This document shows, piece after piece, positions 36,641 to 37,215 of a stretch of 64,000 nt of DNA (the stretch's first letter is position 1; each line of letters begins with the position of its first letter). The DNA comes from Alphaproteobacteria bacterium (lineage in GTDB: Bacteria; Pseudomonadota; Alphaproteobacteria; JAPOUT01; G958296285): the NCBI GenBank assembly GCA_965209065.1, contig OZ242373.1:467533-531532 (forward strand), given 5' to 3'. A program made the translations under genes and the position numbers. Under the pieces are notes generated by a model. It was not told where the DNA came from. It ran no database searches and worked only from the letters and a program-made list of their open reading frames with translations.

Positions 36641-36645
36641 AAAAA

Positions 36646-37169
36646 TGGAAATACAGTGGATTTTTTATCCTAGAACAAATTTATTACCTGAATTTTTAAG
36701 GCAACCTGTAGAGAAATTTCAGGAAGTGCACTCAAAAATTGATTCAACTAAAAATGATTCAAATGACTCAAGGTTAAAAAGTAATCAAGTTTTAGAAATA
36801 CTCACGCCAGGGCTTGAATCAATAGGTTATAGGGTAGAAAAAGGCAAAAAAACTATCGATAAAGTAAGGGTGCCCGTTCTATATGGCGCTCAAGGAAAAG
36901 AAGAGCTCGCATTTGAAGCAGATGCTTATAATAAAGATTCTAAAACTGTTATCGAAGTTGAAGCAGGAAGAGGAGTAACCAATAATCAATTCTTAAAAGA
37001 TATATTTCAGGCGAGTATGATGTCTAATACTGATTATTTGATATTGGCGGTGAGAAATATTTATACAAGAAATAAAAATTTCTCCAGAGCAAGTAGTTTT
37101 TTAGAGACGATTTACTTAACAAACAGAATTAAATTGGATTTGAAAGGCATTCTTCTTATTGGTTATTAA
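36646..37169 (+). CDS. Orphan AT-rich gene; putative PD-(D/E)XK nuclease-fold protein resembling BamHI/BglII-type restriction endonucleases
   Basis: 174 aa from ATG 36646 (GGAG 10 nt upstream; the track's 36594 start overlaps glmS). G+C is visibly much lower than the flanks, with AAA/AAT/TTA-rich codons. Candidate catalytic core: LAFEADAYNKDSKTVIEVEAGRGVTNNQFLKDIFQA..DYLILAVRN, i.e. D-x10-E-x-E. The fold assignment is from memory of BamHI (D94/E111/E113) and is unverified. Confidence 0.5.
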
Positions 37170-37215
37170 GCCTCTTAATATAGCATTAACCAAAGCGGCA
37201 TATTATACTTAAACT

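What the first reader, a model, noticed from the sequence alone, without database searches (positions are those of the whole stretch)
36641..37215. AT-rich one-gene islet at the glmS 3' end (attTn7 position) encoding an orphan BamHI/BglII-like PD-(D/E)XK protein without a methyltransferase
Immediately after the glmS stop, the base composition drops sharply for about 0.55 kb, to roughly one-third G+C by eye against about half in both flanks. Codon usage switches to AAA/AAT/TTA/ATA.

The single 174-aa ORF carries FEADAY-x8-VIEVEAGRG..FLKD..DYLILAVRN. That D-x10-E-x-E core, in a beta-strand context, resembles my recollection of the BamHI catalytic region (ID..-x-..GMEFETGN, D94/E111/E113).

The 3' end of glmS is the classic integration hotspot for Tn7-like elements and their cargo. 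Here I see no tns genes, no element ends and no adjacent DNA methyltransferase. An active restriction endonuclease without a cognate methylase should be toxic. It is therefore either a remnant, a repurposed nuclease, or one half of a split or novel defence gene pair.
Basis: partly seen in the sequence, partly recalled or inferred. Interest (0 to 1): 0.7.

Follow-up and report, generated by a model that had tools for sequence, protein, structure and literature searches.

The report
Solitary BamHI-fold nuclease gene after glmS
A foreign, AT-rich single gene wedged right behind the housekeeping gene glmS encodes an intact BamHI-shaped DNA nuclease from a large unnamed family that is not an ordinary restriction enzyme: it travels alone or as an add-on to cytosine-methylation restriction systems that already have their own cutting enzyme.

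Summary
The ORF at 36645-37169 (174 aa) starts 4 nt after the glmS stop. Its GC is 0.316, the lowest 525-nt stretch in the 64-kb window (mean 0.496, z = -4.8).

An AlphaFold model (pLDDT 90) matches only OkrAI and BamHI among its top 10 PDB hits. E65, D93, E104 and E106 are invariant.

More distant relatives have glmS followed directly by the next gene (empty site). A 96%-glmS sister strain carries a C5-methylase + NgoFVII-type enzyme there instead, next to a decayed remnant of this gene. So the site is a strain-variable hot spot and the gene was acquired horizontally.

The "toxic orphan restriction enzyme" reading is not supported. The family has at least 1200 50%-identity clusters and occurs in bacteria and archaea. 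It lies near a C5 methylase in 36% of well-flanked loci. There it sits beside separate cognate enzymes (HpaII-, EcoO109I-, HaeIII-, NotI-like, Mza), often together with Vsr. Elsewhere it stands alone among housekeeping genes.

Purifying selection is strong in both settings (omega 0.02-0.13). The window copy is the outlier (omega 0.39).

In SAR86 and Woeseiaceae-like genomes the gene is one cassette in a cassette array. That array uses the last glmS codons as its repeat; I found no description of it in four keyword searches.

The biochemical substrate is unknown. A Vsr-like, m5C-linked role is my best guess.

The parts
34799..36640 (+). glmS (glutamine-fructose-6-phosphate aminotransferase, 613 aa); stop codon TAG at 36638-36640
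   Evidence: ORF list. The 98%-identical orthologue in L001 scores SIS (3e-48) and GATase_6/7 in Pfam. It has the canonical C-terminus ...LAKSVTVE.
36634..36637 (+). GGAG inside the last glmS codons (GTG GAG TAG), 7 nt upstream of the nuclease ATG. It is a probable Shine-Dalgarno sequence, so the insert would be translated from the glmS transcript.
   Evidence: Read directly from the sequence. No promoter-like site above shuffle background and no terminator-like site between glmS and the ORF or after it. Function is inferred.
36641..37169 (+). The inserted DNA: a 4-nt leader (AAAA) plus the ORF. GC is 0.32 against 0.51 in the flanks.
   Evidence: Boundaries come from comparing empty sites in L259, L260 and L261 with the alternatively occupied site in L258. 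The shared right boundary is ...AA|GCCTCTTAATATAGCATTAACC. Composition.
36645..37169 (+). 174-aa BamHI-fold PD-(D/E)XK nuclease gene of an unnamed family; stop TAA at 37167-37169
   Evidence: Translation. 1466 homologous clusters and 1208 representatives at 50% identity. AF2 pLDDT 90.4, pTM 0.89. Foldseek top 10 are OkrAI/BamHI. No Pfam, NCBIfam, PADLOC or PHROGs match.
36837..36962 (+). Codons of the putative catalytic residues: E65 (36837-36839), D93 (36921-36923), E104 (36954-36956), E106 (36960-36962)
   Evidence: Invariant in 29-sequence alignments A1 and A2. Order and secondary-structure context (helix, then beta-beta-beta) match BamHI E77/D94/E111/E113, which I recall from memory. No residue-level superposition was available.
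36917..36932 (+). 16-mer AGCAGATGCTTATAAT (codons 91-96). It survives as part of the decayed gene remnant in sister strain L258.
   Evidence: Exact match found in L258 at 6878-6893. None of 5000 shuffles reached 16 nt. Alignment.
37170..37215 (+). Native intergenic/upstream region of the Sel1 gene, not part of the insert
   Evidence: The motif TTAATAT..ATTAACCAAAG..TATACT is also present at the empty sites of L259 and L260, and in L258.
37216..38208 (+). Sel1-repeat protein gene (330 aa), the native right-hand neighbour of glmS in relatives
   Evidence: ORF list. Orthologues carry PF08238.

Best explanation
**What it is (largely shown).** Window 36641-37169 is a horizontally acquired, promoterless one-gene insert. 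It lies between the glmS stop codon and the native upstream region of the next gene, at a strain-variable hot spot. It encodes an intact member of a large, unnamed family of about 170-aa single-domain nucleases with the BamHI/OkrAI fold and a conserved E...D...E-x-E metal-binding site.

**What the family is not (shown).** It is not a classical Type II restriction subunit that needs a cognate methylase. It is a self-contained module found in two settings:
- inside complete 5-methylcytosine methyltransferase-based restriction or defence operons that already have their own effector, often together with Vsr;
- alone among housekeeping genes.

It is under strong purifying selection in both settings. 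The missing methylase is therefore not a paradox.

**History in this lineage (shown).**
- The gene was present before the window strain, L001 and L258 diverged.
- It is now under relaxed constraint.
- In L258 it has been reduced to a remnant lying beside a C5-methylase + NgoFVII-type cassette.

**How it probably works (inferred).**
- It is probably transcribed by read-through from glmS and translated from a GGAG formed by the last glmS codons.
- The protein is probably a Mg2+-dependent DNA endonuclease or nickase. Its substrate does not require self-protection by a matching methylase.
- The specific, repeated and specificity-independent link to C5 methylases mirrors Vsr. My preferred reading is therefore a role tied to 5-methylcytosine biology: processing of deamination or mismatch lesions, or other methylase-induced lesions, complementary to Vsr.
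- This last step is a hypothesis, not a result.
For: **Insert and hot spot**
- Empty glmS-to-Sel1 junctions in L259, L260 and L261. L258 carries DNA_methylase + RE_NgoFVII at the same boundaries.
- L258 keeps a remnant of the nuclease gene: its 5' ~30 nt plus an exact internal 16-mer.
- GC is 0.32 against 0.51. The family gene is AT-richer than its flanks in 86 of 90 loci.

**Fold and active site**
-.

**Accessory status**
- L038: M > gene > R.HpaII (6e-138) > Vsr.
- L029/L030/L164: M > R.EcoO109I > gene.
- L075: M > small ORF > gene > R.HaeIII (2e-97).
- L141: M > Zn-ribbon ORF > gene > NotI-like > Vsr.
- L008 type: M > gene > MzaB-C-D-E.
- A C5 methylase lies within 3 kb in 28 of 78 well-flanked loci, and Vsr in 13 of 78.
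- The methylases are 328-584 aa in any orientation. Median identity times coverage is 24%, against 53% for the nuclease.

**Solitary copies**
- Nearest neighbours are unrelated housekeeping genes.
- Only 1 of 125 neighbouring ORFs from 43 methylase-less loci hits a Type II methylase model.
- Omega is 0.02-0.13 for every close pair, solitary or methylase-linked.
- An identical 582-nt cassette occurs in a SAR86 host and a Woeseiaceae-like host whose glmS proteins are only 53% identical.

**Window copy**
- Window versus L001: dS 0.13, similar to the flanks (0.07-0.11). Omega is 0.39 against 0.08-0.14 for neighbouring genes.
- The catalytic core is intact. Only 3 of 48 highly conserved columns deviate.
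- No terminator or promoter signal separates it from glmS.
Against: - **No biochemical evidence.** Foldseek E-values are modest (best 6.7e-3, TM 0.59), and no residue-level superposition was possible.
- **The Vsr-like idea is weakened by co-occurrence.** About one third of methylase-linked loci also carry canonical Vsr (9 of 28), so the gene is not simply a Vsr substitute.
- **The restriction role is not excluded everywhere.** In some methylase-linked loci no other nuclease was identified (for example L072: HTH > M > Vsr > gene; L113).
- **Sampling and method limits.** Loci are not phylogenetically independent: the Mza-type, gut-type and peat-type operons each contribute several loci. Genes were called with a simple ORF heuristic.
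- **Limited view of the genome.** Only 64 kb of a 1.69-Mb contig is visible, so a methylase elsewhere cannot be excluded.
- **Relaxed selection.** Omega 0.39 could mean the window copy is no longer doing anything.
Confidence: 0.5

Rival explanations
1. Orphan Type II restriction endonuclease. The protein cuts a fixed palindromic site, and the host is protected by a cognate methylase encoded elsewhere in the genome, or the site is rare.
For: - BamHI/OkrAI are the only convincing structural matches, and the catalytic residues are invariant.
- 36% of well-flanked loci have a C5 methylase within 3 kb, often with overlapping stop and start codons.
- In a few loci the family gene is the only visible nuclease beside M and Vsr (L072, L113).
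- Only 64 kb of the window genome could be screened.
Against: - The gene co-resides with bona fide cognate enzymes of at least 5 families with different specificities, plus Mza. One about 50%-identical enzyme family cannot be protected by all of those methylases.
- Partner methylases are as divergent as random C5 methylases.
- Solitary copies have no methylase within 3 kb, are strongly constrained, and move as a single-gene cassette between distant hosts.
Confidence: 0.12
2. Stand-alone defence nuclease that needs no methylase. It would be modification-dependent (Type IV-like) or otherwise aimed at foreign DNA. It sits at a defence hot spot and often neighbours R-M systems simply because defence genes cluster.
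For: - It is solitary, horizontally mobile, low in GC, and tolerated without a methylase.
- The same glmS junction holds an R-M cassette in the sister strain.
- A few solitary loci have Type IV or other defence neighbours.
Against: - The link is specific to C5 methylases and is operonic. The gene lies between M and R with 4-nt overlaps. A 5mC-dependent cutter would be suicidal there.
- No N6 or N4 methylase recurs as a neighbour.
- At about 170 aa the protein has no room for a separate modified-base reader domain.
- Most solitary loci are not in defence islands.
- There is no PADLOC or PHROGs match.
Confidence: 0.2
3. Selfish element: a free-standing homing-type endonuclease gene, or pure cassette cargo, that persists by its own mobility rather than by host benefit.
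For: - It is a precise one-gene, promoterless insertion directly behind a highly conserved gene end, with presence/absence polymorphism.
- The gene sits immediately after glmS in window/L001, L002 and L012, and after one intervening cassette in L005. These hosts' glmS proteins are 38-53% identical to one another.
- It is a mobile cassette in SAR86 and Woeseiaceae-like arrays.
- It is AT-rich in 86 of 90 loci.
Against: - Insertion contexts across the family are highly diverse, and flanking repeats are at background level except in two loci.
- Other cassettes in the glmS arrays carry unrelated ORFs, so mobility there is supplied in trans.
- None of 80 loci returned by the junction-motif scan, roughly a third of them from SAR86 genomes, carries the gene.
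- The specific C5-methylase association is unexplained by this model.
Confidence: 0.1
4. In this particular lineage the gene is a functionless leftover on its way to loss. This is compatible with any family-level function.
For: - Omega is 0.39 (21 nonsynonymous to 13 synonymous changes), the single outlier among all close pairs in the family.
- The gene is reduced to a remnant in sister strain L258.
- No partner genes lie nearby.
Against: - The ORF is intact in two strains that have diverged by dS 0.13.
- All invariant residues are kept, and only 3 of 48 conserved columns deviate, within the family's normal range.
- By my own unscripted estimate, 21:13 is still below the roughly 27:8 expected under neutrality.
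Confidence: 0.15

Closest known systems
BamHI / OkrAI (Type IIP restriction endonucleases, PD-(D/E)XK; PDB 1BHM, 3BAM, 3ODH)
   Same: - They are the best and only convincing structural matches (ranks 1-10, probability 0.87-0.99 for most, TM 0.51-0.59).
- They are similarly small single-domain proteins. OkrAI chains are 192-194 residues.
- The acidic residues come in the same order, E...D...E-x-E, with Glu rather than Lys in the third position. That is the BamHI peculiarity, which I recall from memory.
   Different: - No sequence-profile relationship: no Pfam BamHI or BglII hit, and a profile search of PDB sequences finds nothing.
- The D-to-E spacing is 10 residues, against 16 in BamHI (BamHI numbering from memory).
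- Partner methylases are C5, not N4-cytosine (BamHI methylase type from memory).
- The gene co-occurs with other, cognate restriction enzymes and is commonly solitary, so its biology is not that of a Type II R subunit.
Vsr (very-short-patch repair endonuclease, PF03852)
   Same: - It is a small nuclease that accompanies C5 methyltransferases of many different specificities.
- It often overlaps the 3' end of the methylase gene (for example L008, L035, L074).
- It is much better conserved than the methylases.
- It is tolerated without any restriction partner.
   Different: - The fold subclass and active site are different, and there is no Vsr profile hit.
- It co-occurs with canonical Vsr in about a third of methylase-linked loci, so it is not a simple replacement.
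- It is far more often solitary.
- T:G nicking is untested.
Tn7-like insertion at attTn7 (glmS 3' end)
   Same: Foreign DNA sits immediately downstream of glmS and leaves glmS intact.
   Different: - The insert is 529 nt, with no tnsABCD, no Tn7 ends and no 5-bp duplication.
- It starts 0-4 nt after the stop codon rather than about 25 bp downstream (Tn7 spacing from memory).
- In SAR86 and Woeseiaceae-like arrays the repeated core is the last five glmS codons themselves.
Integron cassette arrays, and tandem integrative-element arrays at tRNA genes
   Same: - In L002-L007 and SAR86 genomes, single-ORF cassettes are arrayed head to tail at one attachment point.
- Each cassette is bounded by a repeat with inverted-repeat arms.
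- The same cassette occurs in different array positions and in different hosts.
   Different: - The repeat is a copy of the glmS 3' end (GTnACnGTGGArTAr), not an attC site or a tRNA fragment.
- No integron integrase was seen; a large serine recombinase lies next to one copy (L006).
- The window itself shows neither core duplication nor terminal repeats.
Mza system (PADLOC MzaB-E: HATPase_c_3, Z1, DUF4420, AIPR) with its C5 methylase
   Same: In about 10-14 loci, mostly Bacteroidota, the family gene sits between the methylase and MzaB with overlapping or abutting reading frames.
   Different: - The family gene matches no PADLOC model, so it is not a listed Mza component.
- The window has no Mza genes.

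Membership tests
BamHI-like Type II restriction endonuclease | BamHI/OkrAI three-dimensional fold | tested here: met
   AF2 model pLDDT 90.4, pTM 0.89. Foldseek PDB ranks 1-10 are all OkrAI/BamHI, best E 6.7e-3, probability 0.99, TM 0.59. The next hits have probability below 0.2.
BamHI-like Type II restriction endonuclease | Sequence-profile membership (Pfam BamHI or BglII families, or PDB sequence match) | tested here: not met
   No Pfam hit other than a spurious one. phmmer and a profile search against PDB sequences find no nuclease.
BamHI-like Type II restriction endonuclease | Catalytic E / D / E-x-E residues in the right structural positions | tested here: inconclusive
   E65, D93, E104 and E106 are invariant and lie after a helix and on consecutive strands. 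No residue-level superposition on BamHI could be obtained.
BamHI-like Type II restriction endonuclease | Works as the restriction partner of one cognate methyltransferase | tested here: not met
   No methylase in the window. Elsewhere the gene sits beside methylases that have their own HpaII-, EcoO109I-, HaeIII-, NotI-like or Mza effectors. The methylases are heterogeneous.
BamHI-like Type II restriction endonuclease | Site-specific double-strand cleavage of unmodified DNA | not testable with these tools
   Needs biochemistry.
Vsr-type mismatch endonuclease | Vsr sequence family (PF03852) | tested here: not met
   No Pfam or NCBIfam match. Canonical Vsr is a separate gene in 22 of the loci.
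Vsr-type mismatch endonuclease | Genomic linkage to C5 methyltransferases irrespective of their specificity | tested here: met
   True for the family: 28 of 78 well-flanked loci, at least 10 distinct architectures, at least 5 different cognate-enzyme families. Not true for the window copy, which has no methylase nearby.
Vsr-type mismatch endonuclease | Nicking 5' of T in T:G mismatches | not testable with these tools
   Needs biochemistry.
Tn7-like element at attTn7 | tnsA/B/C/D genes and Tn7 end repeats | tested here: not met
   The insert is 529 nt and holds only the nuclease ORF.
Tn7-like element at attTn7 | Insertion about 25 bp downstream of the glmS stop with a 5-bp duplication | tested here: not met
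   The insert begins directly after the stop codon. No direct repeat flanks it.
glmS-3' cassette array (seen here in SAR86 and Woeseiaceae-like genomes) | Cassette followed by a copy of the glmS 3' core, and bounded by inverted terminal repeats | tested here: not met
   Met for the 65%-identical homologue in L002-L007. Not met in the window, L001 or L012: there is a single core copy only and no terminal repeats.
Free-standing homing endonuclease gene | Precise presence/absence polymorphism at a conserved site | tested here: met
   Empty sites in L259-L261 against occupied sites in the window and L001.
Free-standing homing endonuclease gene | Family members occupy the same target site, which the enzyme cleaves when empty | tested here: not met
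   Contexts across 174 loci are diverse. Cleavage of the empty site is not testable here.

The most novel reading that the evidence does not exclude
The family is a previously unrecognised second class of accessory endonuclease tied to 5-methylcytosine methyltransferases. It would be a BamHI-fold functional partner or analogue of Vsr that handles methylase-linked DNA lesions. It spreads as a single-gene module, in part through a cassette-array system for which I found no description. That system is integron-like and uses the last codons of glmS as its attachment core in SAR86 and Woeseiaceae-like marine bacteria.
Probability: 0.3. Interest if true: 0.8.

Novelty: new variant of a known kind. 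Interest (0 to 1): 0.6.

Why it matters
**A restriction-enzyme fold outside classical restriction.**
- The family is very widespread. It has at least 1200 clusters at 50% identity and occurs in at least 322 species-level genomes across many bacterial phyla and some archaeal lineages.
- It is strongly conserved and absent from Pfam, NCBIfam and PADLOC.
- If it really is an accessory of cytosine-methylation systems, it adds a new player to the question of how bacteria cope with the mutagenic and toxic side effects of C5 methylases. So far that question has essentially been answered by Vsr alone.
- It would also correct a likely annotation trap, namely calling such genes 'orphan restriction enzymes'.

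**The glmS 3' end as a more general landing pad.**
- In one species-level cluster the junction is alternately occupied by the nuclease or by an m5C R-M pair. It is empty in more distant relatives.
- In SAR86 and Woeseiaceae-like bacteria the same position holds arrays of mobile single-gene cassettes bounded by copies of the glmS end.
- That could be a new gene-capture system in some of the most abundant ocean bacteria.

Tried and rejected
**Vsr replacement.** After seeing the gene in the 'Vsr slot' of L008, I first thought the family was a straight Vsr replacement. I rejected this as stated because canonical Vsr co-occurs in 9 of 28 methylase-linked loci. These include L038, L074 and L082.

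**Cognate restriction enzyme of the neighbouring methylase.** Rejected because separate HpaII-, EcoO109I-, HaeIII-, NotI-like, BglII-like enzymes or Mza effectors are present. The methylases are also heterogeneous.

**Three-gene ancestor in L258 (nuclease + M + R).** No NgoFVII-type gene accompanies the family anywhere else, and the L258 methylase is only 25-34% identical to other family-linked methylases. I treat the M+R pair as an independent cassette that displaced the gene.

**Bsp6I.** From memory it is 174 aa. I set it aside because, as I recall, the literature models it on PvuII with an E-x-K site. This was not checked with tools.

**Searches that gave nothing useful.**
- Pfam, NCBIfam, PADLOC, PHROGs and PDB sequence searches with the protein and with a profile.
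- PF26497, flagged for a few homologues, was not reproduced locally and appears in no paper.
- Phage records had no hit. Plasmids gave only 2 unannotated hits.
- The viral structure library gave only generic nuclease hits with TM below 0.4.
- The exhaustive profile search found no informative domain fusions.
- Literature searches for the family, for Mza or Vsr accessories, and for glmS cassette arrays found nothing.

**Close relatives.** The species-representative genomes contain no close relative of the window organism. The best glmS match is 47% and the best Sel1 match 37%. Presence/absence therefore had to be read from metagenome contigs.

**Flanking direct repeats.** As a general feature of solitary copies they are at background level, except in L014 and L105.
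Full report
**1. The observation**

glmS occupies window 34799-36640 and ends with the canonical ...AKSVTVE followed by TAG. Four bases later, at 36645, a 174-codon ORF begins and runs to the TAA at 37167-37169. 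The next gene, a Sel1-repeat protein, starts at 37216.

- In 200-nt windows the G+C fraction is 0.30-0.38 from 36600 to 37300, and 0.50-0.60 on both sides.
- The ORF has GC 0.316 and GC3 0.24. It is the lowest-GC 525-nt stretch in the entire 64-kb window (mean 0.496, sd 0.038, z = -4.8; lowest value elsewhere 0.373).
The spacer after FEADAY is 6 residues, not 8.

**2. What the protein is**

The protein matches nothing significant in Pfam, NCBIfam, PADLOC, PHROGs or PDB sequences, either as a single sequence or as a profile. It nevertheless belongs to a large family.

- The word-indexed search finds 1466 clusters.
- The exhaustive profile search finds 1208 representatives at 50% identity, 198 of them below 1e-30. 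Nearly all are single-domain proteins of 160-200 aa.
- At least 322 species-representative genomes carry it. They span Pelagibacteraceae, Bacteroidota, Acidobacteriota, Firmicutes, Patescibacteria, Planctomycetota, Nitrosopumilus and Bathyarchaeota, at about 45-55% identity to the query.

Alignments show invariant E65, K68, K73, D93, E104, E106, R109, N113 and Q115-F-L-K-D119, plus a conserved C-terminal LKGILLIGY.

An AlphaFold2 model built on the alignment is confident (pLDDT 90.4, pTM 0.89). Against the PDB, ranks 1-10 are exclusively OkrAI and BamHI chains (best E 6.7e-3, probability 0.99, TM 0.59). Everything below has probability under 0.2. The viral structure library gives only generic PD-(D/E)XK hits with TM below 0.4.

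It is not supported at the sequence-family level. I could not superpose residues.

**3. The islet is an insertion at a strain-variable hot spot**

The window's lineage is essentially absent from the species-representative genomes. The best glmS match there is 47% and the best Sel1 match 37%. The large protein collection does hold relatives.

| Locus | Relation to window | What follows glmS |
|---|---|---|
| L001 | flanks 97-98% nt identity | same synteny; nuclease 89% identical |
| L258 | glmS 96%; same metagenome sample as L001 | C5 DNA methylase (361 aa), then RE_NgoFVII-family enzyme (316 aa), then the same Sel1 genes |
| L259 | glmS 63% | Sel1 gene directly, 76-nt spacer |
| L260 | glmS 69% | Sel1 gene directly, 106-nt spacer |
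| L261 | glmS 56% | Sel1 gene directly, 92-nt spacer |

- The right boundary is identical in the window, L001 and L258: ...AA|GCCTCTTAATATAGCATTAACCAAAG.
- The TTAATAT..ATTAACCAAAG motif also occurs in the empty sites, so 37170-37215 is native sequence.
- Immediately after its glmS stop, L258 retains AAAAATGA-[6-nt gap]-AGTGGATTTTTTATCTTAAAC. That is the first ~30 nt of the nuclease gene.
- This is fused to an exact 16-mer, AGCAGATGCTTATAAT, equal to window 36917-36932 (codons 91-96). None of 5000 shuffles reached 16 nt.

The nuclease gene was therefore already present in the common ancestor of the three strains. In L258 it was later reduced to a remnant and an m5C R-M cassette took its place.

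The insert in the window is just 4 nt plus the ORF. It has no element ends, no duplication and no tns genes.

**4. Expression and selection in this lineage**

- No promoter-like site above shuffle background, and no terminator-like site, separates glmS from the ORF or the ORF from the Sel1 gene.
- The last glmS codons (GTG GAG TAG) place a GGAG 7 nt upstream of the ATG. Co-transcription with glmS and translation from that site is the simplest reading. This is inferred.
- Between the window and L001 the gene has dS 0.13, comparable to its neighbours (0.07-0.11).
- Its dN/dS is 0.39, against 0.08-0.14 for the neighbours.
- Across the whole family, every close pair has dN/dS between 0.02 and 0.13, whether methylase-linked or solitary. 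The window/L001 pair is the single outlier.
- The window protein still has every invariant residue. It departs from only 3 of 48 highly conserved columns (I74V, D145N, P165D), within the family's normal range.

The copy is intact but under relaxed constraint. That fits its loss in L258.

**5. What the family does with methylases**

I called ORFs in 174 loci and clustered the neighbours without prior labels. The dominant neighbour is a C5-cytosine methyltransferase with the FxGxG, PCQ, ENV and QxGNAVPP motifs.

Within 3 kb, in the 78 loci with at least 2 kb of flank on both sides:

| Neighbour | Loci |
|---|---|
| C5 methyltransferase | 28 of 78 |
| Canonical Vsr | 13 of 78 |
| Both, among the 28 methylase-linked loci | 9 of 28 |

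The methylases are not one orthologous group. They are 328-584 aa, lie upstream, downstream or divergent, and have a median identity times coverage of 24%. The nucleases from the same loci are 53% identical.

Most tellingly, many of these operons already contain a bona fide effector:

| Locus | Gene order |
|---|---|
| L038 | M > family gene > R.HpaII family (6e-138) > Vsr |
| L138 | family gene > M > R.HpaII family (assigned by ORF clustering with L038, not scanned itself) |
| L029, L030, L164 | M > R.EcoO109I family (L029: 6e-82; others by clustering) > family gene |
| L092 | R.EcoO109I (by clustering) > M > small ORF > family gene |
| L075 | M > small ORF > family gene > R.HaeIII family (2e-97) |
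| L141 | M > Zn-ribbon ORF > family gene > NotI-like > Vsr |
| L158 | also contains a BglII-like enzyme |
| about 10-14, mostly Bacteroidota | M > family gene > MzaB > MzaC > MzaD > MzaE |

One enzyme family of about 50% identity cannot be the cognate partner of methylases specific for CCGG, GGCC, RGGNCCY and GCGGCCGC-type sites (specificities recalled from the named enzyme families). The gene is an accessory of m5C systems, as Vsr is. Because Vsr is often present as well, it is not simply a Vsr substitute.

**6. Solitary copies are normal**

- In loci without a C5 methylase, the nearest neighbours are unrelated housekeeping genes: enolase, metK, hisF, amtB, homoserine dehydrogenase, glmS and others. 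No other methyltransferase family recurs.
- Of 125 ORFs of at least 200 aa within 3 kb in 43 such loci, one hits a Type II methylase model. Only a handful hit any defence model.
- These solitary genes are as constrained as the linked ones.
- The gene is AT-richer than its flanks in 86 of 90 loci, with a median difference of -0.08. The window, at -0.19, is among the most extreme.
- It is rare on plasmids (2 of 72,556 records, unannotated) and absent from 50,697 phage records.
- In the window itself no DNA methyltransferase, Vsr or Mza gene is detectable. Only 64 kb of a 1.69-Mb contig can be seen.

**7. Why glmS?**

The gene lies immediately downstream of glmS in the window/L001, in L002/L003 and in L012/L013. 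In L005 it lies one cassette further down. These hosts' glmS proteins are only 38-53% identical to one another.

L002 and L005 carry a nuclease that is 100% identical at protein level. Their DNA explains how.

- The region after glmS is an array of single-ORF cassettes of 431-868 nt.
- The cassettes are separated by copies of the last glmS codons. The core is GTnACnGTGGArTAr; about 20 nt are recognisably ...K-S-V-T-V-E-stop.
- Each cassette starts with a 13-17-nt terminal sequence. It ends with the exact reverse complement of that sequence 7-11 nt before the next core.

The 582-nt nuclease cassette occurs in three positions:

- directly after glmS (L002);
- after another cassette (L004, L005, L007);
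- after a segment encoding a large serine recombinase (L006/L098).

L005 is a SAR86 genome (glmS 87-88% identical to SAR86 single-cell genomes). L002 is Woeseiaceae-like (99% over a partial match). The junction motif is concentrated in SAR86 genomes, with up to six cores per 8 kb. None of those 80 loci carries the nuclease.

I found no description of these arrays in the searchable literature. That is not proof of novelty.

The window, L001 and L012 have a single core copy and no terminal repeats. Whether the window's insert arrived by this route and was trimmed, or arrived independently, is open. The window-type glmS ends GAG-TAG, as many cassette-borne cores do. Its empty-site relatives end GAA-TGA or GAA-TAG. 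This is only a hint.

**8. Interpretation**

*Shown:*
- It is a horizontally acquired one-gene insert at a hot spot.
- It has a BamHI fold with a conserved acidic site.
- The family is an accessory of m5C systems or a solitary gene, under strong selection in either setting.
- The window copy is intact but relaxed.

*Inferred:*
- It is expressed from the glmS transcript.
- It has Mg2+-dependent endonuclease or nickase activity.
- Its substrate does not require a matching methylase for self-protection.

*Best guess for the role:* something tied to 5-methylcytosine biology and complementary to Vsr. I would put about 0.3 on that specific step, and about 0.8 on the family not being a classical Type II restriction subunit.

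*Rivals:*
- a true orphan restriction enzyme with an unlinked methylase (0.12);
- a Type IV-like or other stand-alone defence nuclease (0.2);
- a selfish homing-type gene (0.1);
- compatible with any of these, a locally functionless leftover (0.15).

**9. Caveats**

- Gene calls in the comparative loci come from a simple longest-ORF heuristic.
- Loci are not phylogenetically independent.
- Foldseek scores are modest.
- The batch Pfam and PADLOC outputs list only the 25 most frequent families. Rare neighbours can therefore be missed.
- Statements about BamHI residue numbers, Tn7 spacing and enzyme specificities rest on my own knowledge, not on tool results.

Noticed in passing
L002 7950-9007; L004 371-2949; L005 1654-3636; L007 47-3508; L006 3210-3821; SAR86 loci L270, L273, L314: There are arrays of single-ORF cassettes (431-868 nt) directly after glmS. 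Each is separated from the next by a copy of the last glmS codons (GTnACnGTGGArTAr). Each is bounded by a 13-17-nt terminal sequence and its exact reverse complement. The same cassettes occur in different orders and in hosts as distant as SAR86 and a Woeseiaceae-like MAG. I found no paper describing this.
   Followed up: partly
L006 1452-3167 (= L098): A large serine recombinase gene (Resolvase + Recombinase domains, 571 aa) ends about 45 nt before a glmS-core copy that precedes the nuclease cassette. It is a candidate integrase for the glmS-3' cassettes. The left end of this segment is off the contig.
   Followed up: no
L258 6948-8977: A strain with 96%-identical glmS carries a complete C5 methylase + NgoFVII-family restriction enzyme cassette (GC 0.36) at exactly the junction where the window has the nuclease gene. 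A TTGACA-containing stretch lies just upstream of the methylase ATG.
   Followed up: partly
e.g. L063 7748-7972, L092 7748-8005 (c4); L033 7728-7985, L140 5752-5991 (Zn-ribbon): Two unrelated small ORFs recur immediately upstream of, or overlapping, the nuclease gene. One is an ~85-aa protein (16 loci). The other is an ~80-aa Cys4 zinc-ribbon-like protein with NVNCLEGKRCPxCGSxGPFE...C..C (about 20 loci, mostly peat and Acidobacteriota). Neither matches Pfam or PADLOC. They could be regulators or partners.
   Followed up: partly
L014 about 7951 and 8573; L105 about 5722 and 6405: Two solitary copies (a Pelagibacteraceae single-cell genome and a metagenome contig) are flanked by direct repeats of 15 and 14 nt, against a background of 7-10 nt. 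They may be cassette-type insertions at other sites.
   Followed up: no
window 1-13000: Only odd-looking + strand ORFs with low-complexity translations were called here. They look like shadow frames of a very large minus-strand gene that runs off the left end of the window and is therefore not listed.
   Followed up: no
window (ORFs not identified): The PADLOC batch scan of 58 window ORFs gave single hits to mad3 (4.6e-27), mad2, mad8, ThsC, DpdA, BrxP, PtuA, HEC-02A and AriA. DpdA and BrxP are probably the tgt and PAPS-reductase genes upstream of glmU. I did not determine which ORFs hit the mad models. No methylase or restriction-enzyme model was hit.
   Followed up: no
L262 (CP095861.1 27321-27782, Bacillus sp. 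H8-1 plasmid): A 47%-identical copy of the nuclease lies unannotated on a 156-kb mobilizable plasmid. It is about 3 kb downstream of an annotated dcm gene and near an MvaI/BcnI-family restriction enzyme.
   Followed up: no
L012 7805-7820; L002 9008-9022: The native sequence right after the glmS stop in unrelated hosts shares a small palindromic arm: TTTCAACTGGTGAAAT in L012 and TTTACAACAGTAAAT in L002. It resembles the cassette terminal repeats. It may be the chromosomal half of the attachment site, or a conserved glmS 3' hairpin.
   Followed up: no
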